From Candidatus Moranbacteria bacterium CG23_combo_of_CG06-09_8_20_14_all_35_22 (GTDB lineage: Bacteria > Patescibacteriota > Minisyncoccia > Moranbacterales > UBA2206), in the NCBI GenBank assembly GCA_002772115.1, contig PCRW01000068.1:1-38183 (forward strand): 38,183 nucleotides of DNA, written 5' to 3'. Numbering within the stretch: position 1 is the stretch's first letter; every line of letters starts with the position of its first letter. A model generated the notes under the pieces. The model was not told where the DNA came from, did not search any database, and saw only the letters and a program-made list of their open reading frames with translations. A program made the position numbers and the translations under genes. Shown here piece after piece: positions 13,315 through 35,643 of the stretch.

Positions 13315-13916
13315 AATTTTTTTATTTCTTCAAAAACACTTTCTTTATTTTGATTGCCGTCAATTTTTTTCATATTCCAAAAGGAAAAATTAGCGTCATA
13401 CAATTCTTTTTTCTTTTTCAAATACTCCATTCCTTGATCAGGTTTTCGTTCGCGAGACATAATGATTTGCGGATCAGTTTGAAGATAGATCGCCAGATTT
13501 GGCTTCCTAACATCCGATGTTAGGAGTACTTTCCTAACATCGGATGTTAGGAGCGAAAGGTATTCAATATTCACAATGCTGTCATAAAAATATCGATCAC
13601 TTAATATATAATCAAATTTTTCTTTTTCCAATTTCTTGTATAATTTTTTAAAACGCCAAAGATCAATCATTAAAAATATTTTTCGTAAAAATATTTGAAA
13701 AAAATTGGCACGGATAACGCTTTTTTCTTTCTTGGACATTCGATGTCCAATTGGACATCGAATGTCCAAGAGACAACTAATTTTTTTAGCAAGGCCAAAC
13801 TCAATGGCATGAAAATAAAAGACCCGTTTATTTTGGGATTTTAGATATTCTTTTAGTAATTCTATTTGAGTGGATTTTCCAGAGCCATCTAGGCTGGAGA
13901 TTGTGATTAATTTCAT
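13302..13916 (-). CDS. Tmk-like P-loop NMP-kinase-fold protein carrying two palindromic in-frame inserts
   Basis: P-loop SLDGSGKSTQ, SDRYFYDS (DRY-type motif) and PNLAIYLQTDP (compare Tmk PDLTLYLD). The TMP-binding REPGGT-type motif is not visible, so true thymidylate kinase activity is uncertain. Confidence 0.6.
   Translation of the reverse strand: MKLITISSLDGSGKSTQIELLKEYLKSQNKRVFYFHAIEFGLAKKISCLLDIRCPIGHRMSKKEKSVIRANFFQIFLRKIFLMIDLWRFKKLYKKLEKEKFDYILSDRYFYDSIVNIEYLSLLTSDVRKVLLTSDVRKPNLAIYLQTDPQIIMSRERKPDQGMEYLKKKKELYDANFSFWNMKKIDGNQNKESVFEEIKKLCQI
13504..13557. repeat. Tandem 27-nt repeat (x2), each unit a 9-bp-stem hairpin, in-frame in the Tmk-like CDS
   Basis: ttcctaacatc[c]gatgttaggagtact / ttcctaacatc[g]gatgttaggagcgaa. 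The two hairpins differ only in the central loop base, so they are reverse complements of each other. They encode LLTSDVRKV-LLTSDVRKP. Confidence 0.9.
13731..13770. repeat. 40-nt perfect nested palindrome in-frame in the Tmk-like CDS
   Basis: cttggacattcgatgtccaa|ttggacatcgaatgtccaag. The whole segment is self-complementary and each half is itself an 8-bp-stem hairpin. It encodes ...LLDIRCPIGHRMS... Confidence 0.9.
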
Positions 13917-13925
13917 GTGATTCTC

Positions 13926-13972
13926 TACGAATTACGAATTAGTACGAATATACGAATGGGATTAATACGAAA
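13926..13972. repeat. TACGAAT heptamer array (4 exact copies plus 1 variant)
   Basis: tacgaat occurs at 13926, 13933, 13943 and 13951, and tacgaaa at 13966. The array fills the spacer between the RtcB-like stop and the Tmk-like start. Confidence 0.85.
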
Positions 13973-15278
13973 GGATTTCTACTGTTTCTAATTTTGCCAC
14001 TGTTTTAATTATTTTATTTTCTTCCATTTCGTGGACAATTTTTTCGGCGTATTCTTTGGGATTTTCCAAGCCAGTTATTTTGCCAATTTCATGATTAGCA
14101 GAGAAGAAGGTTTCTTCGTTTTGATCAGTGCCTACGCCAATATAAGCGATTTTATTGGCAAAAGGAGCAATTAGCACTGGTTCGCCAGTTTGGGAGAAAA
14201 TCGCGTGGGGAGTCATTTTTGAGGGTCCGTATGCGCGATTAGCACCATTTCGATGGATAATAACTTTTTGATTAAAATGTGTTTCCTCGTCAAAATAGAC
14301 ATGTGGAGCATCATAAAGCAGTTTGGTCGAAACGGATCTAGCGAATATTTTTTCCAGTGCTTTGTGGATTTCGCAAGTTATCAAGGTTCGATTGGCAAAA
14401 CCATAATTTCCGGTGGCACGAAAAGCTGTGTCAATTTTATTTTTGTCATTGATTTGAATTGAGGGTGAAAAAAGTTTGATAAAAAGCAGGATTAATTTTT
14501 GGGAAAAACTCTTTATTTTTCTGGAAGTATAGAGCGAGGCAGTGTAACGGCCAACAATACTTGAACCCGTATGTATAAAAAAAAGATATTGGTTATTTCT
14601 AATTCCCAGGGTTGAAGCGAGGTTTTCATCTAAAATTTCTGATACTCGCATAAGATAAATGAAATGACTGTTGGTTGCTCCAAGAAGCCCAAGGCGAAAT
14701 TTGGCAATCCAAGAAATTATTTTTGGAACGGCATTGGAAATTTCTTGTTTAGATATTTCTTGATTAGCAAAAAAATTACCTTGAGAAAAAGTATTTTCAA
14801 ATTCATTTTTTGTGCAAATTGGGAAAACTCTTTCCAAAGCTTTACTACCGAGTTGAAAAATATCCATTACCATTTCTTTGGAAATTTTTGTGCCAATTAT
14901 TTTTTTGGAAGGGATGTTTTTCTGGAGTTCAGCAAAAAGATTCTTTATATTTTCTTCAGTTAATTCTTTTCCGGCAAGATCAGTCAAAATAACTCGCATT
15001 CCGCAATTAGTGGCGGAATCCAACATTTCCGGGATAATATTTTTTGAAGCAACGACTGCGCCAGTAGGATTTTCTATGTTTGGCTTAGTGTGAGCTTCAC
15101 TAAGAACAGCAATGTCGTGAAAAACATTTTCATTTGCAGCTATTTTTTCAACTGCCTCCAAGACATCACTTTTTTCAAAATTTCTTTCTTCGGAAAACAA
15201 AATAGCCGGTACTTTCATTTTTTCCGTTTGGAAACTTTTTTTGTTTTCAGAAATATTTTCTAAATTATATTTATTCAT
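13962..15278 (-). CDS. Divergent RtcB-family protein (RNA 3'-phosphate ligase fold)
   Basis: It aligns block by block with E. coli RtcB. DIAVLSEAH...NIIPEMLDSATNCGM matches HIAVMPDVH...AIIPAAVGVDIGCGM, and GATNSHF matches GTGNHF. IHTGSSIVGR matches LHSGSRGIGN, and APHVY...HRNGANRA matches CHHNY...TRKGAVSA. SANHEIGK matches SCSHGAGR. Its start overlaps the upstream GT4 stop by 4 nt. Confidence 0.75.
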   Translation of the reverse strand: MNKYNLENISENKKSFQTEKMKVPAILFSEERNFEKSDVLEAVEKIAANENVFHDIAVLSEAHTKPNIENPTGAVVASKNIIPEMLDSATNCGMRVILTDLAGKELTEENIKNLFAELQKNIPSKKIIGTKISKEMVMDIFQLGSKALERVFPICTKNEFENTFSQGNFFANQEISKQEISNAVPKIISWIAKFRLGLLGATNSHFIYLMRVSEILDENLASTLGIRNNQYLFFIHTGSSIVGRYTASLYTSRKIKSFSQKLILLFIKLFSPSIQINDKNKIDTAFRATGNYGFANRTLITCEIHKALEKIFARSVSTKLLYDAPHVYFDEETHFNQKVIIHRNGANRAYGPSKMTPHAIFSQTGEPVLIAPFANKIAYIGVGTDQNEETFFSANHEIGKITGLENPKEYAEKIVHEMEENKIIKTVAKLETVEILSY

Positions 15279-16393
15279 AAAGTCTTATAAATATCTTCAT
15301 AAATTTCAGCAATTTTTTTGATATCAAAATTTTCCTCGCAAAATTTTCGGGCGTTTTTTCCAAGCAAGATTCGCTTTTCTTTATTTTGATATAAATCAAA
15401 AATCGCGTCAGTTAATTGTTGCAAGTTGTCTTTTTCAATTATAACAGAATTATTATTATTGCCCAATTCTTTTAGAATTTCCAGATCCGTTAAAATTATT
15501 GGTTTTTCACAAGCCATTGCCTCAATAACAGCGAGAGGGATATCAAACTTCCCTCGCATATTTTGCACTGGGAAAAGACTGATGTCACAGAGATTATAAA
15601 CTTCTGGCATATCGTATTTGCCATTATCAAAAAAAGAAACTTTCTCTCGAAGATTATTTTTCTTGATTTTTTCCATAACCTTTTCTTTTTTTTGAGCGTC
15701 TTTTTCGTTTTTAATTCGAACTGCTAAAGTTAGCTTGGCCGTGGGAATTTTTTTGGAAATTTCAATGAAACTATCAACGACTAAATCAATCGCTCCAAGA
15801 CGCACATATTCGCCAGAAAAATTTATCACAAAATCATCTTGCGAAATGTTTTTTTCTCGCATAAGCTCTGGATTTTTTTCTTGCAGTTGATATTTTTCTA
15901 GATCAATCCCTGGGTAAACTCTTCTGACATTTTGAAAGCCCAACGAATCCAATTTATTTTTAGCATGATCAGAGTAGGTGATAATGAGATCGGCAAACAT
16001 CAATTTTTTTATATCACAATCTGACCAAAGATCATCACGAAGAGAAGCGATGGTTTGAATTGTTTTAGTATGCTTAGATTTTAAGAAATTTTTAATCAAG
16101 TAGGAATTAAGTTTTGTCGGTGTGAAAAAATAATGATTGATATCAAATTGGCCTTTGGTTTTGAATTGGAAAAGTAGGGCACGCAGTTTTTGGGAAAAAT
16201 TAAAATCCGAAACCTTGGAAGTAGTATAGATATCATTAGAAACAACATTTTCTGGAAGTTCTGGTAAAATTCCCTTGGTCATTAAGTTAATTTCAAAACC
16301 AACTAGGTTTTTGGCTAGATAATAGGCGAAATTTTTAGAACCCTCATCCCAAGGCGGAGCAATCGGTCTTGTTACTAAGAGTATTTTTTTCAT
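15275..16393 (-). CDS. GT4-family (GT-B) glycosyltransferase
   Basis: 372 aa. The C-terminal EX7E-like region is FPVQNMRGKFDIPLAVIEAMACEKPIILTD. It is the first gene of the co-directional operon 16393->10789. Confidence 0.8.
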   Translation of the reverse strand: MKKILLVTRPIAPPWDEGSKNFAYYLAKNLVGFEINLMTKGILPELPENVVSNDIYTTSKVSDFNFSQKLRALLFQFKTKGQFDINHYFFTPTKLNSYLIKNFLKSKHTKTIQTIASLRDDLWSDCDIKKLMFADLIITYSDHAKNKLDSLGFQNVRRVYPGIDLEKYQLQEKNPELMREKNISQDDFVINFSGEYVRLGAIDLVVDSFIEISKKIPTAKLTLAVRIKNEKDAQKKEKVMEKIKKNNLREKVSFFDNGKYDMPEVYNLCDISLFPVQNMRGKFDIPLAVIEAMACEKPIILTDLEILKELGNNNNSVIIEKDNLQQLTDAIFDLYQNKEKRILLGKNARKFCEENFDIKKIAEIYEDIYKTL

Positions 16394-16439
16394 ATTGACA
16401 AATTTTAACTTTTAGTGTAGTTTTTATTTAGCACATTAT

Positions 16440-16745
16440 TAACCCGAGTTCGAAAGGCGAAACACGCATCAATTGTGAGTGGCCGTGCCATTCATTTCAT
16501 TACTGCGGTTTTCGGCTTCAGGACTCAATTTCCCCGAGGGTTGCGTAACTATAACGCGATTTTGGATTAGGTTTCTGTGTTTATGGAAACCAAATGCAAT
16601 AGTTTTTCAATATTATTGCAATAAATATCCGCCCTCGGGCCCCAACATTTTGGCTAGGAGGCTGTTAAAAACGCCTCTGCCTCACTCCTCAGCAGGAGAC
16701 AGTGGTTTCCCTCCTGTTTCCACTTTTCCCTCCTGCTGAGTTTTT
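16440..16745 (-). ncRNA. Structured GC-rich ncRNA, class unconfirmed; best guess is a reduced RNase P RNA on the minus strand
   Basis: An island of about 300 nt, much more GC-rich than its flanks, lies between two CDSs. It has many nested helices: cccgaggg 16533-40 pairs with ccctcggg 16632-39; ggat pairs with atcc around the hairpins ggtttc/gaaacc and tgcaata/tattgca; gcgt pairs with acgc; gaggc pairs with gcctc. On the minus strand, AAUGAAUGG followed by a P2-like 3' strand, and then CGAACUCGGGUUA, resemble RNase P CR-IV and CR-V. A P2/P3/P4-like pseudoknot order is possible. The universal GGAAAGUCC and a P1 helix are not recognisable. The 86-aa ORF at 16479-16739 is judged spurious. Confidence 0.4.
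16688..16745. terminator. Long GC-rich hairpin: candidate intrinsic terminator, or the terminal helix of the ncRNA
   Basis: An 11-bp stem (ctcagcaggag ... ctcctgctgag) encloses an inner agtgg/ccact hairpin. It is followed on the + strand by tttttattttt. On the - strand it begins about 10 nt after the stop of 16750-17109 but has no U-tract. Confidence 0.35.
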
Positions 16746-16749
16746 ATTT

Positions 16750-17109
16750 TTACAAATTTTTATAAATTTCTTTTTTCTCATCTTTCGAAATTACCAAAAT
16801 GGTAATTTTTTTATTTTCGCTCGCGAGAGCCAAATCAGGATTTAGTTGCAAGGCCGAACCTTTTTTAATCTCCGCTTCTCCTTCTTGAATTTTCTTTTTA
16901 TTAGATAGGATTTCCCAATGGAAATTATTTTCATCACTGTGATTTTCAATGATAAAATTAAGCTTGTCAGATTTTGGTTCGGCAAAATATAATACCCACC
17001 AATTTTTTCCAGTATTTTCATTAGATTGTTTTTTTTCAATCCAAGCCAAGGAAGAAGCGCTGAAAATAAAAAAGATTATGGTTGTAAAAATAATTGTTTT
17101 AGATTTCAT
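16750..17109 (-). CDS. Small exported or membrane-anchored hypothetical protein
   Basis: 119 aa. An N-terminal signal/anchor (IIFTTIIFFIFSASSLA) is followed by a domain of about 95 aa. The gene starts 5 nt downstream of the large membrane protein gene. Confidence 0.7.
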   Translation of the reverse strand: MKSKTIIFTTIIFFIFSASSLAWIEKKQSNENTGKNWWVLYFAEPKSDKLNFIIENHSDENNFHWEILSNKKKIQEGEAEIKKGSALQLNPDLALASENKKITILVISKDEKKEIYKNL

Positions 17110-17114
17110 AAAAA

Positions 17115-20233: not shown

Positions 20234-20237
20234 ATTT

Positions 20238-21785: not shown

Positions 21786-23003
21786 ATGAATAAAATAAAA
21801 ATAGGAATCAATGCCAGTTATCTTAGAAAGCCGAACACTGGTATCGGACAAGTGACAGCCAACTTTTTGAAAATGTTGGCAAGAGACAAAAATAATAACT
21901 TTGAATTTATTTTGTATTTAGAGGAAGAAATTCCAAAGGATTTCAAGCTTCCTAAAAATTTTACTAAAAAAATATTTTTGCCAATTTATAAGCGCGATGA
22001 TTTGATTCGAAAAATTTGGTGGGAAAAATTTCTTTTGCCGAGACAAGTCAAAAAAGACGGGTGTGATGTTTTTGTCAGTATGTACCAATGTCCCACTGTT
22101 TTCACAACGCTTAAGACGCCAAGCGTCTTGAATTCTGGACGCTTGGCGTCTTTGCGTCATATAATGCTAGTGCATGATATAATTCCAAAATTATTTCCCA
22201 AGTATTTGGATAATTTCAGAAAAAAAGTATATTGGAAATTGACGGAATATGGGATAAAAAAGGCGCACAAGATTATCGCTGTTTCCAAAAGAACGGAAAA
22301 AGATTTGATTGAACACTTGAATATCGGCGCAGACAGAATTACTACCAATTATATAGATGTCGATGAATGTTATAAGGTAGAGACGCAAAATTTTGCGTCT
22401 CTACGAGAGCGAAATATTTTAAAGAAATACAAATTAAATTCAGGATATATCTTAGCTGGTGGGGGATATGAGGTGCGAAAAAATGTCGAGGGTGTGGTGC
22501 GAGCCTATAAATTACTGTTAGAAAAAAACAAAAAAGAAAATTTTTTGCCAAATTTTCCGAAGTTAGCGATATACGGAAAGGTTTTGTCGGAAAGTTTGAG
22601 TCTGGCAACGCCGATAGAAAAAATATTGAGAGAATTAAATTTGACGAAAGATGTGATTCTTTTGGGTGAAGTCCCACAAAAAGACTTGCCGGCGCTGTTT
22701 AGTCATGCTATTGTGTTTGCTTACCCTTCGTTTTATGAGGGTTTTGGCATGCAAATTTTGGAAGCCATGAATGTGGGTACGCCTGCCATCACTTCCAAAG
22801 TTTCTTCACTGCCAGAAGTAGGCGGAGACAGTGTGTTATATTGTAATCCTGATGAAATTTCTGACATCGCAATGGTTTTGAAAAATATTTTAACGAATTA
22901 TGATTTACGAGAACAACTGAAAACTCGTGGCCAAGAACGCGCCAAACAATTTTCCTGGGAAAAATTTAGCGAGAAGATTTTAAATATAATTGAAGAAATG
23001 TAA
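21786..23003 (+). CDS. GT4-family glycosyltransferase carrying two palindromic in-frame inserts
   Basis: The motif YPSFYEGFGMQILEAMNVGTPAITS matches the paralogue at 24765-25925 (FPSFYEGFGMPIIEAMSLGVPTIVSD). Confidence 0.85.
   Translation: MNKIKIGINASYLRKPNTGIGQVTANFLKMLARDKNNNFEFILYLEEEIPKDFKLPKNFTKKIFLPIYKRDDLIRKIWWEKFLLPRQVKKDGCDVFVSMYQCPTVFTTLKTPSVLNSGRLASLRHIMLVHDIIPKLFPKYLDNFRKKVYWKLTEYGIKKAHKIIAVSKRTEKDLIEHLNIGADRITTNYIDVDECYKVETQNFASLRERNILKKYKLNSGYILAGGGYEVRKNVEGVVRAYKLLLEKNKKENFLPNFPKLAIYGKVLSESLSLATPIEKILRELNLTKDVILLGEVPQKDLPALFSHAIVFAYPSFYEGFGMQILEAMNVGTPAITSKVSSLPEVGGDSVLYCNPDEISDIAMVLKNILTNYDLREQLKTRGQERAKQFSWEKFSEKILNIIEEM
22113..22152. repeat. Near-perfect nested palindrome (double hairpin around a GAATTC centre), in-frame in a GT4 CDS
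   Basis: aagacgccaagcgtctt-gaattc-tggacgcttggcgtctt. It encodes ...LKTPSVLNSGRLASLRH..., which has no counterpart in the paralogue at 24765-25925. Confidence 0.85.
22377..22404. repeat. 28-nt perfect palindrome, copy 1, in-frame in a GT4 CDS
   Basis: gtagagacgcaaaattttgcgtctctac. It encodes VETQNFASLR. Confidence 0.9.
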
Positions 23004-24698
23004 ATGAATTTATTTTTTGAAAAAATAATTAATAACTTCAACAAGCCAAAAAATTGGCTTCTTTTGGCGAATGTGGTTTTGGTTTTTGTTTTGATAGTTT
23101 GCAATAATTTGGGAATTATTCCTTTGCGAATGGGGGATTTTGTTTTTTTTGCGATTTTAGTTTTGGGCTTGGCGCTGTATCGTCCTGGGTGGGCCTTTTT
23201 ATTTTTTGTTGGCACGATTGCATTGGAAAACATCAATTTGGCACCGGCCGAACTTGGAATTGCCATTCGACCCTATCAATTTATCGGCACGCTCACGATC
23301 ACGGCAATTATAACTCGATTACTTTCTGGAAAATTAAATTTCAAATTGGCAAAATTAAATTTTGTAGATTATCTAATTCTAATTATTACAGCGTCTAGTT
23401 TTGTAAGTGCGTTTATTTCTGCGGTAAAGATGCAAAATTTTGCGTCTCTACGGTTGGCGATAATTCTGGCGATATTTTCCGCGCTATATTTTTTAGTGCG
23501 AAATTATGTTCAAAATTTAGAAGATCTCAAAAAAATTATTCCTTTTTTTCTAAGTTCGGCGGTTGTCGTCGTGCTTTATGGCATTTGGCAAAATATTTGG
23601 TTTTTGAAAGGATTAAAAAGTTTTGAAACAATGTTGGGACGATCAAACGCAACTTTTTTCGAAGCGGATTGGCTGGGAATGTACTTAGTGTTGATAATAT
23701 CGATTTTAATAATTCTTTTTTCTGCCCTCTCCTCAACTCCCGCCTACCGGCGAGGCAGGCTCTCCCGATTACGGGCGAGGGGGTCATTGAAATTTCCTTC
23801 TCTCCCTTTGGGAGAGATATCCCGATGTAATCATCGGGACAGAGAGGGAAAGGGCGTATTAATAAAAATATTCTTATTTATATTTTTAACCTTATCTTTT
23901 ATTTTATTAATTCTTACTGTTTCACGCAGTGCTTGGCTCGGGGCATTTGCAATGACATTTATTTTTCTTTTCGCTATTCTAACAAATTTAAAATTTTATC
24001 TAAAACATTGGCAATGGAAAAAAACTATTCAAATGAAATTAATTATATTTCCGGCACTGTTAGTTGCAATTGGTGCAATTTATATTTTCCATCTGACTAA
24101 TTTCCAATTATTTAATCGAGTGCAATCAACTGGATCAGGAATGCAAAAAATTACCATTTCTTGTGATGCAAGGAACGCAAATTTGCATTCCCTACCGAAA
24201 GAAATTGAAAATATTTCTGAATTAGAAAAATATAATTGCCGGCATATAAATTTAGAAGAAATAGATTTTGAAAAAGCTAAAGGGAAATATGTTAGTGAAA
24301 TTTATCGTAAAGATCCAAATGTAAACATAAGAAAAGAAATTTATCAGAAATCTTGGCAAGAAATTAGAAATCATTGGATATTGGGAATTGGTTGGGGAAA
24401 TATTTCCAAAATATTAGGCAATGACGAAAAGGGGACGCCCTTGAATTCTTCCAATATATTTTTGGAAGTTTGGCTGGGCACTGGAATTTTAGGTTTTGCG
24501 TCTTTCGTTATTATGCTATCGTATATATTAGTAAGGGCAGTGAGAGATTATTATTTATCAAAAGATGATTTGCAAAAAATCGTCAGTTTATTTTTAATTA
24601 TTTCCTGGTTTGCAATTATTATCCCCAATCTTTTCAATGCCGGAATATTTTTAGGATTTTTGTGGGTTTGGCTGGGCATAGTACATATAAAAAAATAG
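23004..24698 (+). CDS. O-antigen ligase/polymerase-family (Wzy_C) membrane protein carrying three repeat-derived inserts
   Basis: Multi-TM protein with LTVSRSAWLGAF and a large outer loop followed by GIGWGN. Its ATG abuts the stop of the upstream GT4 gene. Confidence 0.7.
   Translation: MNLFFEKIINNFNKPKNWLLLANVVLVFVLIVCNNLGIIPLRMGDFVFFAILVLGLALYRPGWAFLFFVGTIALENINLAPAELGIAIRPYQFIGTLTITAIITRLLSGKLNFKLAKLNFVDYLILIITASSFVSAFISAVKMQNFASLRLAIILAIFSALYFLVRNYVQNLEDLKKIIPFFLSSAVVVVLYGIWQNIWFLKGLKSFETMLGRSNATFFEADWLGMYLVLIISILIILFSALSSTPAYRRGRLSRLRARGSLKFPSLPLGEISRCNHRDREGKGVLIKIFLFIFLTLSFILLILTVSRSAWLGAFAMTFIFLFAILTNLKFYLKHWQWKKTIQMKLIIFPALLVAIGAIYIFHLTNFQLFNRVQSTGSGMQKITISCDARNANLHSLPKEIENISELEKYNCRHINLEEIDFEKAKGKYVSEIYRKDPNVNIRKEIYQKSWQEIRNHWILGIGWGNISKILGNDEKGTPLNSSNIFLEVWLGTGILGFASFVIMLSYILVRAVRDYYLSKDDLQKIVSLFLIISWFAIIIPNLFNAGIFLGFLWVWLGIVHIKK
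23424..23451. repeat. 28-nt palindrome, copy 2 (2 mismatches), in-frame in the O-antigen-ligase-like CDS
   Basis: gtaaagatgcaaaattttgcgtctctac. It encodes VKMQNFASLR. Confidence 0.9.
23722..23856. repeat. GC-rich multi-hairpin block of about 135 nt, in-frame in the O-antigen-ligase-like CDS
   Basis: It contains cccgcctaccggcgaggcagg (23739-59), and the hairpins cccg-atta-cggg (23764-75), tctctccc-ttt-gggagaga (23799-817) and cccgatg-taat-catcggg (23821-38). It encodes STPAYRRGRLSRLRARGSLKFPSLPLGEISRCNHRDREGKG. Confidence 0.85.
24171..24192. repeat. Imperfect 22-nt palindrome in-frame in the O-antigen-ligase-like CDS
   Basis: aggaacgcaaa|tttgcattccc (9 of 11 arm positions pair). Its gcaaa-tttgc core is related to the 28-nt palindrome. 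It encodes ARNANLHSL. Confidence 0.6.
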
Positions 24699-24705
24699 GA
24701 AGGTT

Positions 24706-24752
24706 AAATTCGAGGTTTCACCTCGAGTAACTCGAGGTGAAACCTCGAATTT
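24706..24752. repeat. 47-nt perfect nested palindrome (double hairpin), intergenic
   Basis: aaattcgaggtttcacctcgagt-a-actcgaggtgaaacctcgaattt. Each arm contains the hairpin cgaggt-nnn-acctcg. It lies between the ligase-like stop (24698) and the GT4 start (24765). Confidence 0.9.
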
Positions 24753-24764
24753 ATTTAAATCATT

Positions 24765-25925
24765 ATGAAAATTGGCATTGACATTCGAAATATTGGCAAA
24801 AAAAGAACTGGCGACGAGGTGGTATTTTTCAATTTGACCAAAAATTTGGCTAAAATTGATAATGAGAATGAATATAAATTATTTACTGACATAACTGACA
24901 AAAATATTTTAGAAAGAGTTGGAAAAGATTTAGAAATCACAGATAAAAATAATTTTGAAATAATTTCACTGGAAGCTAAAAATAAATTCAGTTGGAATTT
25001 TTGGACGCTTCCGAAATATTTGCGAAAAAAACCAGTTGATGTTTATCTCACGCAATACATCACGCCGTGGTTTGTGCCAAATAAAGTGAAAATTATCACC
25101 ATTATTCATGATATTTCCTTCAATTTTTATCCGCAATTTATAAAAAAGTCAGATTTATTTTTTCTAAAAAGCTTAATTCCCTTGAGTCTAGAAAGAGCGG
25201 ACAAAATTTTGGCCGTTTCGCGCTTTACACAGGATGAAATAATTAAATATTATAAAATTGATCCCAAAAAAATTGATTGGTTTCATAATGCAGTTTCAGA
25301 TGATTTTTTGGTGCAAGATATATCAGAGGAAAAAATAAAAATAATCAAGAAAAAATACAATCTTCCAGAAAGATATATTCTATATCTTGGCACCTTACAA
25401 CCAAGGAAAAATATTCCAGCGCTTATTGAAGCGTTTGCTTTGCTAAAAGTAGAACTCGACTTGAAATTAAAACTTAATTTTACAAAGTTGGTTATCGCCG
25501 GAGGGAAAGGACATAATTATGACAAACTCATAGATGAAGTTGTTAGGGAAAATAATTTATCCGAGGATGTTTTTTTTCCTGGGTACATTGACGAAGATGA
25601 TAAGGCAGGAATATTGAAAGGGGCGGATATTTTTGTTTTCCCTTCATTTTATGAAGGATTTGGCATGCCAATTATCGAAGCAATGTCACTGGGAGTGCCA
25701 ACAATAGTTTCCGATATTCCACCTCACCAAGAAATAGCGGGTGATGCAGTGCTATATTTCAAACCGGAAATCCCTGGTGAGCTCACGCAAAAAATCAAAG
25801 AAATAATTAGCAGTGAAGTTGTGAGAGATAATGCATCGCGAAACGGAAAATTTCAAGCCCAAAATTTTTCTTGGGAAAAAAGCGCCCGAAAAATGCTGGA
25901 AATTTTTTCCCAGATGGTTGGTTGA
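24765..25925 (+). CDS. GT4-family glycosyltransferase
   Basis: FPSFYEGFGMPIIEAMSLGVPTIVSD. It is a paralogue of 21786-23003 without the inserts. Confidence 0.85.
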   Translation: MKIGIDIRNIGKKRTGDEVVFFNLTKNLAKIDNENEYKLFTDITDKNILERVGKDLEITDKNNFEIISLEAKNKFSWNFWTLPKYLRKKPVDVYLTQYITPWFVPNKVKIITIIHDISFNFYPQFIKKSDLFFLKSLIPLSLERADKILAVSRFTQDEIIKYYKIDPKKIDWFHNAVSDDFLVQDISEEKIKIIKKKYNLPERYILYLGTLQPRKNIPALIEAFALLKVELDLKLKLNFTKLVIAGGKGHNYDKLIDEVVRENNLSEDVFFPGYIDEDDKAGILKGADIFVFPSFYEGFGMPIIEAMSLGVPTIVSDIPPHQEIAGDAVLYFKPEIPGELTQKIKEIISSEVVRDNASRNGKFQAQNFSWEKSARKMLEIFSQMVG

Positions 25926-28031: not shown

Positions 28032-29366
28032 ATGAATCAAGAAAATTTTAAAGAAAAAATAAATCAAGAAATAATCGGAGAGAAAGAGAAAAGAGAAAAA
28101 GAAAATCTGGAGAAAAATCTCCGGCTTTTTAAAAAATATGTATTTTTTTCAGTGGTTGTAATTTTTTTGATCATCAGTTTTTTCCTTGGTTATAAAAAGG
28201 GGCAAGACGAAACGCATTCAAAAAACAGAGAAGTTTTGTTGGAAAAAGCAATTATTGAAAATAAAGCCCTTCCACAAGGGGAAAAAGTTGATTTTGCCAT
28301 TTTTTGGAAAGTTTGGGAGTTGGTCAAAGAAAAGCATGTGGAAAAAAATAATTTAGATGCGCAAAAAATGGTTTATGGAGCGATTAATGGAATGCTTAGC
28401 GCTACAGGAGATCCTTACTCGAGTTTTTTTAATCCCGAGGAAAGTAGAATGTTTTCGCAGGATATTGCCGGATCATTTGATGGTATTGGAGCAGAACTGG
28501 GAATAAAAGATGAAATTTTGACTATTATTGCTCCACTGGACGGTTCTCCAGCGCAAAAATCCGGACTTCGCAGCGGGGATAAAATTTTGAAAATTGATGG
28601 CAAGTCATCGTTGGATCTGACAATTGATCAAGCAGTGAATCTTATCAGGGGGAAAAAGGGCACTTCTGTTGAATTGACAATTTTTCATGAAAATGATCAA
28701 GAGACCGTGGAAGTGACTGTAATTAGAGATACGATAAAATTAGATAGCGCCAAGGTAGAATTTAAGGATGATGGCATCGCGTATCTAAAAATAATCAAAT
28801 TTTCTGATGATGTGGATGATCAATTTAATTTGGCAATGAATAAGATTATTACTAATAAAAGCAAAGGTATAATTTTAGATCTTCGCGATAATCCCGGTGG
28901 TCTTTTGGATAAATCAATTTCTATTGCCAGTCGGATGATGCCGAAAGGTAAAATAGTTGTTTTGGAAGAAGATAGTAGCGGCAAGAAAGAAAATATTTAT
29001 ACTTTTGGCGGAGATAAATTGAGTTCGATTCCTATGGTGGCGCTTATCAATGAAGGCAGTGCTAGCGCTTCGGAAATTTTAGCCGGAGCTTTGCGGGATA
29101 ATCAGGAAATAGTTTTAATTGGTGAAAAAACATTTGGCAAGGGAAGTGTTCAAGAACTAGTTGATCTGCCAGATGGATCAAGCGTCAAAATTACTGTGGC
29201 CAAATGGCTCACGCCCAAAGGAGAGTATATTATGGACAAAGGAATTTCTCCTGATATTGAAATCAAAATGACACCGGAAGATTATGAAAATAAACGCGAC
29301 CCGCAATTGGAAAAAGCGCTGGAAGAAATAAAGAAAATCAGAACCACTGACCTGCCTCGCCGGTAG
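28032..29366 (+). CDS. ctpA: Carboxy-terminal processing protease (peptidase S41) with a PDZ domain
   Basis: PDZ domain (GLRSGDKILKIDG). S41 core NPGG, GSASASEILAG and TFGKGSVQ. The last five codons and the stop lie inside a dispersed 21-nt repeat. Confidence 0.85.
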   Translation: MNQENFKEKINQEIIGEKEKREKENLEKNLRLFKKYVFFSVVVIFLIISFFLGYKKGQDETHSKNREVLLEKAIIENKALPQGEKVDFAIFWKVWELVKEKHVEKNNLDAQKMVYGAINGMLSATGDPYSSFFNPEESRMFSQDIAGSFDGIGAELGIKDEILTIIAPLDGSPAQKSGLRSGDKILKIDGKSSLDLTIDQAVNLIRGKKGTSVELTIFHENDQETVEVTVIRDTIKLDSAKVEFKDDGIAYLKIIKFSDDVDDQFNLAMNKIITNKSKGIILDLRDNPGGLLDKSISIASRMMPKGKIVVLEEDSSGKKENIYTFGGDKLSSIPMVALINEGSASASEILAGALRDNQEIVLIGEKTFGKGSVQELVDLPDGSSVKITVAKWLTPKGEYIMDKGISPDIEIKMTPEDYENKRDPQLEKALEEIKKIRTTDLPRR

Positions 29367-29371
29367 GCGGG
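29351..29371. repeat. 21-nt repeat, the exact reverse complement of 23739-23759, spanning the ctpA stop codon
   Basis: cctgcctcgccggtaggcggg. It encodes LPRR plus the TAG stop of ctpA. Confidence 0.9.
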
Positions 29372-31613: not shown

Positions 31614-31621
31614 GCACGAAT

Positions 31622-31655
31622 AAAAAAACGAACCTTTCAATAAGTTCGTTTTTTT
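31622..31655. terminator. Bidirectional intrinsic terminator between convergent pyrG and rpmA
   Basis: aaaaaaacgaac-ctttcaataa-gttcgttttttt: a 7-bp stem flanked by an A-run and a T-run. Confidence 0.6.
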
Positions 31656-31681
31656 AGTTTATATGCGTTGTATGTTCATGT

Positions 31682-31954: not shown

Positions 31955-32160
31955 AATTGTCTGCGAATATAATGAGCAGGAACAATTATGAGCGTCCCTG
32001 CACCTATTCTTAAATTAATCTTTATAATAAAAACAAATAAAGCCGAAGGCGTTTCCGTGACTATGCCTAAAAATTAGCAGAAAACTAATTTTGGAATAGG
32101 TGTGGGAAGCCAAGCTTTTAAGTATAATTAAGCTTACCAATTATATGCTATAATGTCAAT

Positions 32161-32559
32161 ATGAATAGTAAAGTAAAAGATTTTTGGCAAAAATACGAAT
32201 ATAAAATAGTCCTTGCGGTGGGCTTTGTTTTGGTAGCGGTAGTTTCTTTTGAAGGGGGAATTTTGAAAGGTCAAAAATTATCCCAAAATCCAGTGATTAT
32301 TGAAAAATCGATAGAGAACGCAGTGCCCATTGAAAATAATATTAATTCAGCAGTTCAAGGTGTTTCACAGAGCCAAAATTTGCCCACTGAAGTGAAAAAT
32401 AAGGATTGCGCCCTTGTAGGGTCAAAAAATTCTAACAAATATCATCTGCCGACTTGTCGTTATGCCAAATCTATCAAACCAGAAAACCGTGTTTGCTTTT
32501 CTTCCGAAGATGATGCAAAATCAAAAGGGTATCTGCCGGATAAAAATTGTATAAAATAA
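32161..32559 (+). CDS. Membrane-anchored protein with a C-terminal Cys-rich YHxPxC-type (Ada-Zn-like) domain
   Basis: N-terminal TM helix (IVLAVGFVLVAVVSF). The C-terminus reads CALVGSKNSNKYHLPTCRYAKSI...CF.SEDDAKSKGY.PDKNC. Confidence 0.6.
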   Translation: MNSKVKDFWQKYEYKIVLAVGFVLVAVVSFEGGILKGQKLSQNPVIIEKSIENAVPIENNINSAVQGVSQSQNLPTEVKNKDCALVGSKNSNKYHLPTCRYAKSIKPENRVCFSSEDDAKSKGYLPDKNCIK

Positions 32560-32567
32560 TTAACCGA

Positions 32568-32601
32568 TGCGAAACTACGAATCGTATGCGAATCTACGAA
32601 C
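32568..32601. repeat. T(A/G)CGAA(N) heptamer array upstream of pyrH
   Basis: tgcgaaa at 32568, tacgaat at 32576, tgcgaat at 32587 and tacgaac at 32595. Confidence 0.75.
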
Positions 32602-32615
32602 AAAATTAAAACACT

Positions 32616-33323
32616 ATGAATAATAAAAACGATATCATTGTAATTTCTCTTGGAGGATCATTGATCGTTCCAAAAAGAATTGATTGGCGATTTTTGAAAA
32701 AATTTCGCGAGTTGATTATTTGCGAAATTAAAAAAGGCAAAAGATTTGCAATTATCACGGGTGGGGGATATGCGGCGCGGGAATACGCCCAAGTGGCGTC
32801 AAAAGTTACAAAACTCACTCGAGATGACTTAGATTGGCTAGGCATTCATACAACCAGACTCAATGTGCATTTAATCAAAACTATTTTCAGGCAATACGCT
32901 AATCCGCGAATAAATAAAAATCCAAGGACAAAAGAAAATTTAACTAGTCATTTTGCCAAAGGCGAGGGGATTATGGTCGCGGCTGGCTGGCGACCAGGCT
33001 GGTCAACGGATTTTGTGGCGACAATTATCGCCGAGCGACTTGGCGCCAAAAAACTCATCAATCTTTCCAACATCAAATACGCTTATGATAAAGATCCGAA
33101 AAAATATCCAGATGCCAAAATAATCAAAGAAATTAATTGGAAAAATTTCAGAAAGATTGTTGGTAATCGTTGGGACCCAGGACTCAATATGCCTTTTGAT
33201 CCAGTGGCTTCAAAACTAGCGCAGAAAAACAAATTGGAAGTTATCATTGCCGAAGGCAAGAATCTAAAAAATTTGAAAAATATTTTAGAAGAGAAAAAAT
33301 TTCAAGGGACGGTGATAAAATAA
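32616..33323 (+). CDS. pyrH: UMP kinase, archaeal-type (amino-acid-kinase fold)
   Basis: IVISLGGSLIVP and ITGGGYAAREY. About 235 aa, and it lacks the bacterial KLSGE-type N-terminus. Confidence 0.75.
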   Translation: MNNKNDIIVISLGGSLIVPKRIDWRFLKKFRELIICEIKKGKRFAIITGGGYAAREYAQVASKVTKLTRDDLDWLGIHTTRLNVHLIKTIFRQYANPRINKNPRTKENLTSHFAKGEGIMVAAGWRPGWSTDFVATIIAERLGAKKLINLSNIKYAYDKDPKKYPDAKIIKEINWKNFRKIVGNRWDPGLNMPFDPVASKLAQKNKLEVIIAEGKNLKNLKNILEEKKFQGTVIK

Positions 33324-33559
33324 TGAAAAAGTTTTTAATAAGTATAAGTGCGATATTTTTTATAATTGCAATTGGATTGTTTTTTATCTTTGATGCAAAT
33401 AAGGAGAAAATAATGACAAACCCCTATATAAAATCAATTGTACAAAAAATAGCCGATTTTATTTATACTGAAGCTGGAAAGCACAATCCCCAAGGCGATA
33501 TATTGCCAGATAAGGTGGATGACGATATAATTAAGGAAATAAAGAAAAAAATTAATTAA
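33323..33559 (+). CDS. Small membrane-anchored hypothetical protein
   Basis: 78 aa with one N-terminal TM helix. Its start overlaps the pyrH stop by 1 nt. Confidence 0.5.
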   Translation: MKKFLISISAIFFIIAIGLFFIFDANKEKIMTNPYIKSIVQKIADFIYTEAGKHNPQGDILPDKVDDDIIKEIKKKIN

Positions 33560-33564
33560 AAAAT

Positions 33565-33954
33565 ATGAACAAAAGAATAATTAGCAATATAATATTTTCT
33601 GTAATTTTAGTTTTAATGGTCTTAATTTTTTTAGATTTTATTGGTATTTTTAATATTTTTTATTATGATAGACATCCTTTATTATTATGCCCAGGACAAA
33701 ATAAATATTGGAAAGATATATTTAATTCAGGAGTGCTATTTGACGAAAATAAGTTCGATGCTTATCAAGGTATTTTAAATATTATTATCTTTGTATTATA
33801 TCCAATTATATATTTAGTATTTGAAATACAATATTTTAGAAAAAAAAGATTAACGCTATTGGCAGTTTTTTTAACAATTTTTTTCATTGCATATTTTATT
33901 AATATTATTTCTTATGAATGTTGGGCGGAGTTTTTTAATTTTGATCCTTACTAG
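33565..33954 (+). CDS. Hypothetical integral membrane protein
   Basis: 129 aa with 3-4 hydrophobic segments. It begins 5 nt after the previous ORF. Confidence 0.5.
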   Translation: MNKRIISNIIFSVILVLMVLIFLDFIGIFNIFYYDRHPLLLCPGQNKYWKDIFNSGVLFDENKFDAYQGILNIIIFVLYPIIYLVFEIQYFRKKRLTLLAVFLTIFFIAYFINIISYECWAEFFNFDPY

Positions 33955-34412
33955 TCCTTACTAGTTTGTTTGAAATTTATCTTTTTATATTTCAACAAAA
34001 AATAAATCAAGAAATAAAAAACCAAAGAAATTGCTCCAGCGATTATTATGAAGCCAACACTTAAAGGCAATAATAATTTCAAAATAATAGTTTCGGAAAA
34101 AAATTGTTTGAAAGCAAGTGGATAAGTTTGATTGAAATTGACAATAAGTTCTTGCATTTCAACTCCAAAAATCCAACTTCCCAATTTGACGGCAAAGGGC
34201 ATAATTAAAATTGATGTCCAAAAATTAGTCGCTAATACTCCGGCAACAGCGGATAAACGGTTCACTCTTATTATCCAAGCAATTACAATAGCGGTTAAAA
34301 TTCCCCCCGGAATAATTCCCAAAAAAATTCCCAAAGCCGCTCCCGCAGCAACTTTATGCGGAGTGTCATCGATGAGAAAGAATTTTTTGAAAAAAGTTTT
34401 TAATTTATGCAT
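33951..34412 (-). CDS. DUF2062-like small integral membrane protein
   Basis: FFLIDDTPHKVAAGAALGIFLGIIP, followed by 3-4 TM helices. Confidence 0.6.
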   Translation of the reverse strand: MHKLKTFFKKFFLIDDTPHKVAAGAALGIFLGIIPGGILTAIVIAWIIRVNRLSAVAGVLATNFWTSILIMPFAVKLGSWIFGVEMQELIVNFNQTYPLAFKQFFSETIILKLLLPLSVGFIIIAGAISLVFYFLIYFLLKYKKINFKQTSKD

Positions 34413-34426
34413 ATAAATTGCTATAG

Positions 34427-34451
34427 GGATCCTGAAATAAATTCAGGATGA
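34427..34451. repeat. 25-bp inverted-repeat arm (left) flanking the nuclease gene; itself a hairpin or operator-like palindrome
   Basis: gatcctgaaataaattcaggatgac is the exact reverse complement of 35656-35680. Confidence 0.85.
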
Positions 34452-34488
34452 CAAAAACACAAGTTCAGGATGATTCCACTAAGCGGAA

Positions 34489-35643
34489 TCATTTTTTCTT
34501 CACGCTTAAACTTTTGGTTTCTTTGTTGAGAACTTTGGCTTTTTCAATTTCCTTTTTGGCATCAAATGGTAAGACACCCAGAATATTTCGCAGTGCAATG
34601 CCATCTACTTTCAACACATCTTCCCAATGATCAAGTGGTTCCAAAACTTCACGGAGTTTTTTCTCGTCATATTTATAAGTTTTGCGAAGTGACCTCGCAA
34701 TGACGCCTTGTGGCCCAAAAACTCGCTCCACGCCTTCTTGATCCATATAACTCAAGATATCCTCTTGCAGTTTTGCTAAACGATCTTTGGTAATATTTAT
34801 CGCTGATTTCAAATCTATGTATTCTTCGATAGATTTGTTAATTTCTTCTGTGTCGATGTGACGCAGTTCTTTGAATTTATGTTTCCACATTGGGCAAAGA
34901 TTTTGGTATCCGCACCAATCGCAAAGAGGGGACATAGTCGGCTCAAAATTACCAGCCTCAATGACTTTTATAGTGTCTAAAAAGAGTTGTTCACTTTTTT
35001 TCAATTGTTCTAAGGTTCTTGTGGCGGATAATTTCATGCCATGTTTCAAATAATATAAGCTAACTTTTATTTTATCTAAATTTTGAATTTCTTTGGGATA
35101 ATTAGAAAGAAATGCTTGCAGATAAACAGAGAGTTGAATGTCGTTGTCAACTTTTTCTTGATTAGGCATTTTCTTGGTAGTTTTATAATCAATAATTTCA
35201 AAACCATCGTCAGTTTTGTCTATGCGGTCGATGATGCCAGAGATGATATGTCTTTCTTGGGCTTGCCCCGCGGTCGCCGTAGGTGACTTTGCGGGGCCTA
35301 TTTCAATTTGAAAACGGGATTCCAAATTGATAATATTAAAATCAGCCGGATTATTTTTTTGATAATAATCTTGAATAATTTTGACGCCTTGGGAAAAGGC
35401 GGCACGCTCCTCAGTTTCTCCGTCGAAAACTGCTGGGTTCCAGGAATTTCCAAAATGTTCCATAGCTTGATCCAAAGTAGGGGAGAGAATTCCCGGTGTA
35501 TGGATAAATTTCATTGTTTCATGAATTGTCGAGCCAAAAACCGCCTCCTTGGATTTAGGAACTTTAATTCGATCAATATTTTGAAATTTATATTTCAGCG
35601 GGCAATTCTGATAGGCATCAAAAGCACTGTAGGATATACGCAT
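34489..35643 (-). CDS. PD-(D/E)XK nuclease, Cas4/AddB-like with a 4-Cys cluster
   Basis: N-terminal SAFDAYQNCPLKYKF. Nuclease core GIIDRID ... EIIDYKT. CDWCGYQNLCP, together with the N-terminal Cys, fits an Fe-S staple. A C-terminal extension of about 130 aa follows. Confidence 0.75.
   Translation of the reverse strand: MRISYSAFDAYQNCPLKYKFQNIDRIKVPKSKEAVFGSTIHETMKFIHTPGILSPTLDQAMEHFGNSWNPAVFDGETEERAAFSQGVKIIQDYYQKNNPADFNIINLESRFQIEIGPAKSPTATAGQAQERHIISGIIDRIDKTDDGFEIIDYKTTKKMPNQEKVDNDIQLSVYLQAFLSNYPKEIQNLDKIKVSLYYLKHGMKLSATRTLEQLKKSEQLFLDTIKVIEAGNFEPTMSPLCDWCGYQNLCPMWKHKFKELRHIDTEEINKSIEEYIDLKSAINITKDRLAKLQEDILSYMDQEGVERVFGPQGVIARSLRKTYKYDEKKLREVLEPLDHWEDVLKVDGIALRNILGVLPFDAKKEIEKAKVLNKETKSLSVKKK
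35266..35296. repeat. GC-rich hairpin in-frame in the nuclease CDS
   Basis: ccccgc-ggtcgccgtaggtgacttt-gcgggg. It encodes ...AKSPTATAGQAQ... in an otherwise AT-rich gene. Confidence 0.7.

What the first reader, a model, noticed from the sequence alone, without database searches (positions are those of the whole stretch)
13504..35296. Family-level observation: palindromic and nested-palindromic elements inserted in-frame in protein-coding genes (RPE-like behaviour)
At least nine short (22-135 nt) palindromic or hairpin-rich segments lie inside five ORFs, and none breaks the reading frame. The ORFs are the Tmk-like gene (two elements), GT4 21786-23003 (two), the O-antigen-ligase-like gene (three), the 3' end of ctpA, and the PD-(D/E)XK nuclease.

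The segments are visibly more GC-rich than the host genes. They translate to out-of-character peptides: LLTSDVRKVLLTSDVRK, LLDIRCPIGHRMS, LKTPSVLNSGRLASLRH, ETQNFASLR and KMQNFASLR, STPAYRRGRLSRLRARG...CNHRDREGKG, and SPTATAGQAQ. Where an in-window paralogue exists (GT4 24765-25925), the palindrome-encoded residues have no counterpart, so they look like insertions.

Four elements (13504, 13731, 22113, 24706) share one geometry. A hairpin is followed by a 0-8 nt spacer and then the same hairpin with a complemented loop. The whole is therefore a palindrome whose arms are themselves palindromes. Their stem sequences are unrelated, which argues for a common generating mechanism rather than one transposing sequence family.

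In-frame palindromic insertions are established for Rickettsia palindromic elements. I am not aware of a description in this kind of AT-rich, CPR-like genome.
Basis: partly seen in the sequence, partly recalled or inferred. Interest (0 to 1): 0.85.

Follow-up and report, generated by a model that had tools for sequence, protein, structure and literature searches.

The report
In-frame palindromic repeat elements in Moranbacteria
A tiny-genome groundwater bacterium (Candidatus Moranbacteria) carries families of short hairpin-forming DNA repeats sitting in frame inside ordinary genes, in disordered protein loops, as known so far mainly from Rickettsia.

Summary
Four intragenic palindromes (A 13505-13552, B 13730-13771, C 22113-22152, D 22377-22404) are far beyond chance: 0 in 100 codon shuffles, fold z -7.6 to -10.9. 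E, F and I are weaker hairpin segments. H is weak and straddles the ctpA stop codon. G is intergenic and terminator-like.

Orthologue alignments show each is a lineage-specific insert or replacement in a variable loop. In AlphaFold models those loops are the low-confidence regions. The same loops hold unrelated hairpin elements in sister genomes.

B-type double hairpins occur in frame in MetRS, a DUF1616 membrane protein and a large unannotated protein, and also between genes. The D 28-mer recurs in the Wzy-like gene, a flippase gene and Mu-like portal genes.

At orthologous sites all four arms change together and stay near-perfectly symmetrical.

Best reading: REPIN/MITE-like mini-elements behaving like Rickettsia palindromic elements. 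I infer that template switching keeps them symmetrical. The mobilising enzyme is unknown. I found no report of this for CPR bacteria. I rate it a new variant of a known kind.

The parts
13505..13552 (.). Element A. A 48-nt double hairpin (mini-REPIN geometry) in the Tmk-like gene, encoding LLTSDVRKVLLTSDVRK (aa 122-138).
   Evidence: Perfect 21-nt arms. Fold z -10.9. It occupies hypervariable loop 'site A' of the orthologue alignment. Orthologous variants co-vary in all four arms.
13730..13771 (.). Element B. A 42-nt perfect palindrome with core TTGGACATTCGATGTCCAA x2 in the Tmk-like gene, encoding LLDIRCPIGHRMSKK (aa 49-63).
   Evidence: z -10.4. Identical in L001. Family copies occur in MetRS, a DUF1616 protein, a large unannotated ORF and intergenic DNA. 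It lies in a pLDDT<50 segment.
22113..22152 (.). Element C. A 40-nt double hairpin in the GT4 gene, encoding KTPSVLNSGRLASL (aa 110-123).
   Evidence: z -9.2. It is about 39 nt extra relative to L002 and L005. The orthologous copy in L118 shows four-arm co-variation. pLDDT<50 at residues 111-120.
22377..22404 (.). Element D. The perfect 28-mer GTAGAGACGCAAAATTTTGCGTCTCTAC in the GT4 gene, encoding VETQNFASLR.
   Evidence: z -7.6. Identical in L001. A perfect but different 28-mer sits at the same codon position in L115. Copies occur in other genes and in viral contigs.
23424..23451 (.). Element E. A decayed D-family copy in the Wzy-like gene, encoding VKMQNFASLR.
   Evidence: 20 nt identical to D. 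About +3 aa relative to L002 and L115, while L118 has a related palindrome there.
23727..23862 (.). Element F. A 136-nt GC-rich composite of about four hairpin modules in the Wzy-like gene (aa 242-287).
   Evidence: z -3.0. Absent in L115 and replaced by a different element in L002. Modules recur in L005 and L008.
24705..24753 (.). Element G. A 49-nt double hairpin, intergenic between the Wzy-like stop and the next GT4 start. Terminator-like.
   Evidence: z -13.0; top terminator-like site.
29351..29371 (.). Element H. The hairpin CCTGCCTCGCCGGTAGGCGGG across the ctpA stop codon. It supplies the last residues LPRR and the TAG stop.
   Evidence: Exact reverse complement of 23739-23759 in F. C-terminal comparison with orthologues. 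Fold not significant on its own.
35265..35297 (.). Element I. A GC-rich hairpin (GCCCCGC...GCGGGGC) in the PD-(D/E)XK nuclease gene, encoding about SPTATAGQAQ.
   Evidence: A 30-nt insertion relative to L007. It lies in a variable loop, and P0146 has another insert there. z -3.1.
35646..35720 (.). Element J. An intergenic pair of hairpins (GTCATCCTGAA...TTCAGGAT / ATGCTGAA...TTCAGCATGAC) upstream of the nuclease gene.
   Evidence: z -6.6. Relatives in L001, L006, L012 and L059. From the peptides, the same family appears to sit in frame in Tmk orthologues P0037, P0054 and P0095 (inference).
34428..34454 (.). Second copy of the J hairpin, intergenic on the other side of the nuclease gene.
   Evidence: 27/27 match to J. 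z -5.0.
13302..13916 (-). Host gene: Tmk-like P-loop kinase.
   Evidence: Pfam PF02223, E 2.8e-11.
21786..23003 (+). Host gene: GT4 glycosyltransferase.
   Evidence: Pfam.
23004..24698 (+). Host gene: Wzy_C / O-antigen-ligase-like membrane protein.
   Evidence: Pfam.
28032..29366 (+). Host gene: S41 C-terminal processing protease.
   Evidence: Pfam.
34489..35643 (-). Host gene: PD-(D/E)XK nuclease.
   Evidence: Pfam.

Best explanation
The window carries members of several families of very short hairpin or palindromic repeat elements. They are 28-50 nt, sometimes concatenated to about 100-136 nt, and are common in Moranbacteria and Parcubacteria.

Steps, with status:
1. Shown: copies sit between genes, at gene ends and, in frame, inside permissive surface loops of ordinary genes.
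2. Shown: the double-hairpin members (A, B, C, G) have the architecture of a miniature REPIN, that is two inverted copies of a small hairpin. D and E are GTAG-headed palindromes like REPs.
3. Shown: the same loops are occupied by different families in sister genomes.
4. Shown: at orthologous sites the arms change in a coordinated way and the element stays near-perfectly symmetrical.
5. Inferred: elements arrive by some form of transposition or templated insertion. Only in-frame, stop-free insertions in disordered loops survive selection.
6. Inferred: once resident, an element is inherited vertically and its arms are homogenised by hairpin-templated template switching (quasipalindrome correction). 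Alternate folds (two small hairpins or one long one) allow a change to spread to all four arms.
7. Inferred: resident hairpins make the site a hot spot for replacement or nesting by other elements.
8. Unknown: the mobilising enzyme.
For: Insertion status:
- GT4 site C is about 39 nt extra relative to L002 and L005.
- PD-(D/E)XK element I is a clean 30-nt insert relative to L007.
- Wzy-like F is absent in L115.
- The ctpA tail gains LPRR.

Permissive loops:
- In the GT4 model the only pLDDT<50 segments are 111-120 and 201-203, which correspond to C and D.
- In the Tmk-like model residues 51-66 are below 50 (B), and the block 121-130 has mean 60 (A).

Families and mobility:
- A pattern scan with free loops found B-type double hairpins in 10 metagenome stretches.
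- These cover Tmk, MetRS (Pfam 5.7e-106), a DUF1616 membrane protein, a >630-aa ORF and AT-flanked intergenic DNA. One 11-kb contig holds three copies.
- The D 28-mer or its half occurs in 11 viral-collection stretches. It is also found in the L008 flippase gene, the Wzy-like gene of the window and L118, and Mu-like portal genes.
- The IARESRDDRGNL...ARND element with 11-nt terminal inverted repeats sits at L001 GT4 site C and at L002 Wzy-like site F.

Hot spots:
- Only 19 of 112 Tmk orthologues keep the commonest, non-palindromic loop motif (..IPCEKFI..) at site A. Six or more other peptide types occupy it, plus many unclassified loops.
- The same pattern holds for GT4 sites C, D and N and the DUF6541 loops.

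Concerted change:
- Site A in the window, L112, L113 and L114.
- Site C in the window versus L118.
- Site D has perfect 28-mers of different sequence in the window and L115 at 59% protein identity.
- In all 5 B variants the unconstrained 5-nt loop segments are exact reverse complements.

Not an artefact: the same elements appear in independent assemblies from other sites.

Literature: REPIN architecture and compensatory changes (PMC3337134, PMC3116915); quasipalindrome template switching (PMC7202029).
Against: - No transposase (Y1/HUH, RAYT, IS) was found in the window or in the fetched loci. That last search used query sequences recalled from memory and is a weak negative.
- No target-site duplication could be identified.
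- D and E change the loop length by only about 3 residues, so they look like replacements rather than simple insertions.
- Copy number in the source genome is unknown.
- Elements A, C, G and I had no second copy in the sequence I could search.
- Translation of the inserts is inferred from intact frames only.
- Template switching is inferred, not shown. Selection on structure could also produce co-variation.
Confidence: 0.7

Rival explanations
1. Purely local origin. Each palindrome was created on the spot by replication template switching or fold-back copying in a mutation-tolerant loop, with no mobility.
For: - D and E are nearly length-neutral replacements.
- Symmetry is perfect and arms evolve in concert at fixed sites.
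- No transposase and no target-site duplication were found.
- A, C, G and I have no other copies in the searched data.
Against: Near-identical elements occur at non-homologous sites and in different genomes:
- B in five contexts.
- D in at least five gene families.
- The F/H 21-mer and two J copies.
- The same roughly 97-nt element with terminal inverted repeats in two different genes of two genomes.
Confidence: 0.12
2. Functional cis-elements. The palindromes are selected RNA or DNA structures, such as processing or pause sites, terminators or binding sites for a dimeric protein. They are kept inside genes because the genome has almost no spacer DNA.
For: - A 28-nt perfect palindrome is kept at the same GT4 codon position across orthologues down to 59% identity, with compensatory change.
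- Several are palindromic through the centre (AATT, CATG, CTAG), which an RNA hairpin would not require.
- G is terminator-like.
- J copies flank the nuclease gene.
Against: - Most orthologues lack any given element, or carry an unrelated one at the same site.
- Copies occur in different reading frames and in unrelated genes.
- Decayed copies exist: E, and L117.
Confidence: 0.13
3. The segments are removed before or during translation. This could be RNA-level excision and religation by the adjacent RtcB ligase, or ribosomal bypassing, so they are not part of the proteins.
For: - RtcB lies immediately next to the Tmk-like gene, and this synteny is conserved.
- The double-hairpin geometry is superficially like IRE1/RtcB splice sites (my knowledge).
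Against: - Every element keeps the host frame open, which would be unnecessary if it were removed.
- The palindrome lengths (28, 38, 40 nt) are not multiples of 3. Excising exactly the palindrome, or loop to loop (19 nt in B), would break the frame.
- The RtcB synteny is present whether or not the neighbouring gene carries an element.
Confidence: 0.03
4. Assembly or amplification artefact (chimeric inverted joins).
For: Perfect palindromes are a known product of amplification chimeras (my knowledge).
Against: - The same proteins are recorded on 10-14 contigs from several sources.
- Elements B and D are identical in a MAG from a different site.
- Orthologous variants occur in independent ENA, JGI, Logan and NCBI assemblies.
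Confidence: 0.02

Closest known systems
Rickettsia palindromic elements (RPE; Ogata et al. 2000, 2002, as summarised in PMC10969869)
   Same: Palindromic repeat families in a small AT-rich genome, inserted in frame into unrelated housekeeping genes. They are tolerated because they fall in loops, and several families coexist.
   Different: RPEs are about 100-150 bp, whereas most elements here are 28-50 nt perfect palindromes. The host phylum differs and no sequence relationship was tested. Here the same loop is reused by many families, and the arms evolve in concert.
REP sequences and REPINs mobilised by RAYT transposases (PMC3337134, PMC3116915)
   Same: - A, B, C and G are two inverted copies of a small hairpin separated by 0-10 nt, forming a larger hairpin, which is REPIN geometry.
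- D and E start with GTAG and end with CTAC, like REPs (the GTAG hallmark is from my memory of Nunvar 2010 and Ton-Hoang 2012).
- Compensatory changes are seen.
- Singlets and doublets both occur (L085).
   Different: REPINs are extragenic, about 70-110+ nt long, present in hundreds of copies, and tied to a single-copy RAYT gene. Here they are intragenic and in frame, 38-49 nt long, no RAYT was seen, and copy number is unknown.
MITEs that make in-frame fusions (ERIC, Correia, Anabaena MITEs; PMC10969869)
   Same: Small non-coding elements with inverted ends that can sit inside ORFs. The roughly 97-nt GTCATTGCGAG...CTCGCAATGAC element in L001 and L002 looks like a classic MITE.
   Different: No target-site duplication or parent IS was identified. 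Most elements are far shorter than typical MITEs.
Hairpin elements of AT-rich organelle genomes: yeast mitochondrial GC clusters, Allomyces double-hairpin elements (my knowledge), sponge repetitive hairpin-forming elements (PMC2800124)
   Same: GC-rich hairpins, sometimes double, spreading in very compact AT-rich genomes. As far as I recall, they sometimes sit inside coding regions without breaking the frame.
   Different: Organelle rather than bacterial. No sequence relationship.
Quasipalindrome-associated template-switch mutation (PMC7202029; Ripley model and Monttinen & Loytynoja 2022 from my knowledge)
   Same: It provides a one-step way to copy a change from one arm of an inverted repeat to the other. 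This is what the four-arm co-variation requires.
   Different: It is a mutational process, not an element family. Its operation here is inferred only.

Membership tests
Rickettsia palindromic elements (RPE) | Palindromic repeat inserted in frame in protein-coding genes | tested here: met
Rickettsia palindromic elements (RPE) | Element length about 100-150 bp | tested here: not met
   A-E and G-I are 21-49 nt. Only the composite F (136 nt) is in range.
Rickettsia palindromic elements (RPE) | Sequence similarity to the RPE-1 to RPE-10 consensus sequences | not tested
Rickettsia palindromic elements (RPE) | Inserts lie in surface loops compatible with the fold | tested here: met
   The low-pLDDT segments coincide with B, C and D, and partly with A.
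REP / REPIN | Two inverted copies of a short palindrome forming a larger hairpin | tested here: met
   A, B, C and G. B-family variants.
REP / REPIN | Conserved GTAG-type head next to the palindrome | tested here: inconclusive
   Present in D and E and in the 28-mers of L005 and L015. Absent in A, B, C and G.
REP / REPIN | Extragenic location | tested here: not met
   A-F and I are inside ORFs. Only G, J and the 36225 palindrome are intergenic.
REP / REPIN | A cognate RAYT (Y1 transposase) gene in the genome | tested here: inconclusive
   None in the window by Pfam. No tblastn hit in the fetched loci. The rest of the genome was not available.
REP / REPIN | Tens to hundreds of copies per genome | not testable with these tools
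   Only 38 kb of the genome is in hand. Partial evidence: 2 D-type, 2 J-type and the shared F/H 21-mer in the window, and 3 B copies in L085.
MITE | Terminal inverted repeats, small size, no coding capacity of its own | tested here: met
   All elements are palindromic. The L001 element has 11-nt terminal inverted repeats.
MITE | Target-site duplication | tested here: inconclusive
   None is recognisable at the C, I or B4 sites. The flanks are too diverged from empty sites to judge.
MITE | A related autonomous IS with matching ends | tested here: inconclusive
   No IS or transposase in the window or the loci.
Intrinsic terminator | GC-rich stem followed by a T-run downstream of a gene | tested here: inconclusive
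   G meets the consensus. The intragenic elements A-F and I were not flagged as terminator-like by the scan.

The most novel reading that the evidence does not exclude
CPR bacteria harbour a previously unrecognised class of ultra-short (28-50 nt) double-hairpin mobile elements. Under this reading:
- they repeatedly home to the same hairpin-bearing loops of essential genes (Tmk-like kinase, MetRS, envelope glycosyltransferases);
- they move without a RAYT or IS transposase;
- a high rate of hairpin-templated template switching keeps them perfectly symmetrical.

Palindromic DNA would then be a major, ongoing source of new protein loop sequence in these minimal genomes.
Probability: 0.3. Interest if true: 0.8.

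Novelty: new variant of a known kind. Interest (0 to 1): 0.66.

Why it matters
In-frame palindromic repeats have been treated as a speciality of Rickettsia (PMC10969869). Finding the same behaviour in a free-living-lineage CPR bacterium suggests it is a general outcome when hairpin repeats meet a genome with almost no spacer DNA. Here it involves many families, reused hot-spot loops and miniature REPIN architecture.

Practical consequences:
- It explains many "out-of-character" peptides and length differences in CPR protein families, and warns annotators and aligners about them.
- It offers natural experiments on which loops tolerate about 10-45 extra residues.
- It provides orthologous series of palindromes in which concerted arm evolution, and therefore template switching, can be measured.

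Tried and rejected
- An automated scan of lineage-specific alignment inserts for palindromes gave only a modest enrichment (10% versus 1.5% at score >=8). Hot-spot columns fragmented the inserts and the mismatch penalty was strict, so I relied on manual site-by-site comparison instead.
- The density of strong palindromes per 10 kb in Moranbacteria loci is not higher than in other bacteria. My ORF-based coding versus non-coding call was unreliable for GC-rich control genomes, so I make no claim of overall enrichment.
- In the window, palindromes are about six times denser per base in spacers than in genes: 2 in 2.8 kb against 4 in 35.4 kb.
- Viral-collection scans for A and C found nothing.
- The scan for a single G hairpin gave 10 hits. 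By my rough estimate of collection size that is about chance level, so I did not use it.
- The D 30-mer has no match in GenBank phages or PLSDB plasmids.
- Rfam and tRNA scans of the window were empty.
- tblastn with remembered Y1 transposase sequences found nothing credible.
- DNA could not be fetched for P0003, P0013 and P0027.
- Being stop-free in all frames is not a general property. B is open in 6 of 6 frames, A in only 2 of 6, and G in 3 of 6.

Full report
**Source and setting.** The window matches Candidatus Moranbacteria bacterium CG23_combo_of_CG06-09 at 100% for three proteins. It has about 33% G+C and is 93% coding. It encodes a cell-envelope glycosylation cluster: GT4 and GT2 transferases, a Wzy_C-like protein, a flippase, LytR and PMT-like proteins. 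It also encodes housekeeping genes: CTP synthase, L9, an S41 protease, RtcB, a Tmk-like kinase and a PD-(D/E)XK nuclease. No transposase domain, Rfam family or tRNA was found.

- A perfect-stem scan recovers A (13505-13552), B (13730-13771), C (22113-22152), D (22377-22404) and G (24705-24753) exactly as described. It also finds two 8-bp hairpins inside F.
- Folded as single strands, A, B, C, D and G have z-scores of -7.6 to -13 against dinucleotide shuffles. E, F and I reach -2.5 to -3.1. H reaches only -1.0.
- When codons are permuted within each of the 33 genes, no shuffle in 100 produced a palindrome of the strength of A-D. Four are observed.
- All host frames are open and the peptides are as quoted.
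- Three corrections apply. G is intergenic and is the best terminator-like site in the region. H straddles the ctpA stop codon and contributes only the last four residues and the TAG. The stems are not all unrelated, as shown below.

**Are they insertions?** Orthologue comparisons say so for every host gene.
- Tmk-like kinase: A and B occupy two hypervariable loops between conserved blocks.
- GT4 site C: most orthologues have a 2-4 residue linker, and the window carries about 39 extra nucleotides relative to L002 and L005.
- GT4 site D: D adds about 3 residues.
- Wzy-like gene: E is +3 residues relative to L002 and L115. F is absent from L115.
- Nuclease gene: I is a clean 30-nt insert relative to L007.
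- ctpA: the closest tails end ...KKIRTTD*, whereas the window reads ...KKIRTTDLPRR*.
- AlphaFold models place the inserts in the least confident parts. In GT4 the only segments below pLDDT 50 are 111-120 and 201-203, which are C and D. In the kinase, 51-66 is below 50 (B), and the block holding A averages 60.

**Hot spots.** The same loops carry different hairpin elements in related genomes.
- At kinase site A, L001 has a 42-nt palindrome, CCTAAGATTCAACCTTTGGCTAGCCAAAGGTTGAACCTTAGG. L005 has a 28-nt GTAG...CTAC palindrome. L012 has one element family in both loops.
- Among 112 orthologues only 19 keep the commonest, non-palindromic loop motif (..IPCEKFI..). The others show at least six recurrent peptide types, plus many unclassified loops. 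Examples are LLTSDVRK-like, WTSDVQ, KIEN repeats, PLASQR, SRLRGND, HSERS and CHPEFISGS...MLKQVQHDK. Reading these as element families where I lack the DNA is an inference from the peptides.
- GT4 site C holds at least six unrelated inserts. These include a roughly 97-nt element with 11-nt terminal inverted repeats in L001. The same element family sits at Wzy-like site F in L002.
- Two loops of the DUF1616/DUF6541 membrane protein behave the same way.

**Families and mobility.**
- I scanned the metagenome collection for TTGGACA-N(3-7)-TGTCCAATTGGACA-N(3-7)-TGTCCAA. This found 10 stretches.
- The hits comprise the kinase site, an in-frame copy in methionyl-tRNA synthetase, one in the DUF1616 protein, one in a large unannotated ORF, and AT-flanked intergenic copies. 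One contig holds three copies, including a single hairpin.
- In all five sequence variants the unconstrained loop segments are exact reverse complements, and the eighth stem pair co-varies in all four arms.
- A shares the core ACATCCGATGT with the commonest B variant.
- The D 28-mer, or its half, occurs in 11 stretches of the viral collection with 37-56% G+C. These include a 42-nt-period tandem array and a C-terminal copy in Mu-like portal genes. It also occurs in the flippase gene of L008.
- E is a decayed D. F and H share an exact 21-mer. The intergenic hairpin J occurs on both sides of the nuclease gene and in other genomes.
- The elements are therefore repeat families, not one-off local products.

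**Concerted evolution.**
- Site A: the window, L112, L113 and L114 differ in stem and loop bases, yet the two 21-nt arms remain exact or near-exact reverse complements. In L113 each small hairpin has a mismatch while the large palindrome is perfect.
- Site C: the window and L118 differ by G>A in the stem, with matching changes in all four arms and both loops. A shared imperfection is retained.
- Site D: the window has GTAGAGACGCAAAATTTTGCGTCTCTAC and L115 has GTACAGACGAGGCATGCCTCGTCTGTAC. Both are perfect 28-mers at the same codon position, with 59% protein identity between the hosts.
- This needs either strong selection on structure or a copying process between arms. I favour hairpin-templated template switching, the established quasipalindrome mechanism (PMC7202029). 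One event copies a change to the partner arm, and the alternative folds connect all four arms. This step is inference.

**Comparison with known systems.**
- The behaviour is that of Rickettsia palindromic elements, which reviews still treat as exceptional (PMC10969869). Size, host and (untested) sequence differ.
- The double-hairpin geometry is that of REPINs, and D has the REP-like GTAG head (PMC3337134, PMC3116915). REPINs, however, are extragenic and depend on a RAYT gene, which I did not find (a weak negative).
- Organelle hairpin elements are a further analogue (PMC2800124 and my own knowledge).
- I found no paper describing this in CPR bacteria.

**Verdict.** The finding is real and its main interpretation holds. 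The claim of unrelated stems, and hence of no transposing families, does not hold. I classify it as a new variant of a known kind. The mobilising mechanism and the cause of site reuse remain open.

Noticed in passing
window 13962-15278 and 13302-13916; L001-L020, L112, L114: An RtcB RNA ligase gene lies immediately upstream of the Tmk-like P-loop kinase in essentially every Moranbacteria locus fetched. The kinase matches the Pfam thymidylate kinase model only weakly (E 2.8e-11). It may be an RNA-repair kinase partner of RtcB rather than a dTMP kinase.
   Followed up: partly
window 16394-16749: A 356-nt spacer with G+C-rich stretches (up to 62%) between two minus-strand genes. It is 81% identical to the corresponding region of L001 and has no Rfam match. 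It could be an unrecognised small RNA or small gene.
   Followed up: partly
window 6144-10792: Three tandem genes of about 500-517 residues have no Pfam match. tblastn shows that the third (9287-10792) has three tandem paralogous matches in L001 and L002.
   Followed up: no
L099 3406-3643; L101 3373-3400: Mu-like portal protein genes in IMG/VR contigs carry D-family palindromes in frame in their C-terminal tails. In L099 they form a tandem array of six 42-nt units (28-nt palindrome plus 14-nt spacer).
   Followed up: partly
window 34428-34454 and 35646-35720: The PD-(D/E)XK (Cas4-like plus DUF7376) nuclease gene is bracketed on both sides by copies of the same hairpin family (GTCATCCTGAA...TTCAGGAT). 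Relatives of that hairpin occur in other Moranbacteria and in a Bacteroidales contig (L059).
   Followed up: partly
Tmk-like orthologues, loop B (alignment A1 columns about 65-90): Many orthologues carry a Cys-rich motif (FRNKYCLICKLxGKC) in loop B. In the window and L001, palindrome B occupies that place (CLLDIRCPIGHRMS).
   Followed up: no
GT4 orthologues, about residue 35 and about residue 60 (alignment A3): There are two further insertion hot spots. One follows LxxLK, with inserts such as VESDPPARFAKALARRAGEAGK or VQPACPLRNEASLRGRSAK. The other is a recurrent NPASSAGKF insert encoded by the hairpin CCTGCCTCATCGGCAGG.
   Followed up: partly
window 36225-36254: A 30-nt intergenic palindrome, TTACTACCGTATTCTAGTATACGGTAGTAA, which is terminator-like.
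   Followed up: no
L082, L083, L090 (downstream of the intergenic B copy): A G+C-rich stretch of about 200 nt follows the intergenic B-type double hairpin in three contigs. It reads as a spurious ORF and has no Rfam match at gathering threshold in the two contigs scanned (L083, L090). It may be a structured RNA.
   Followed up: partly
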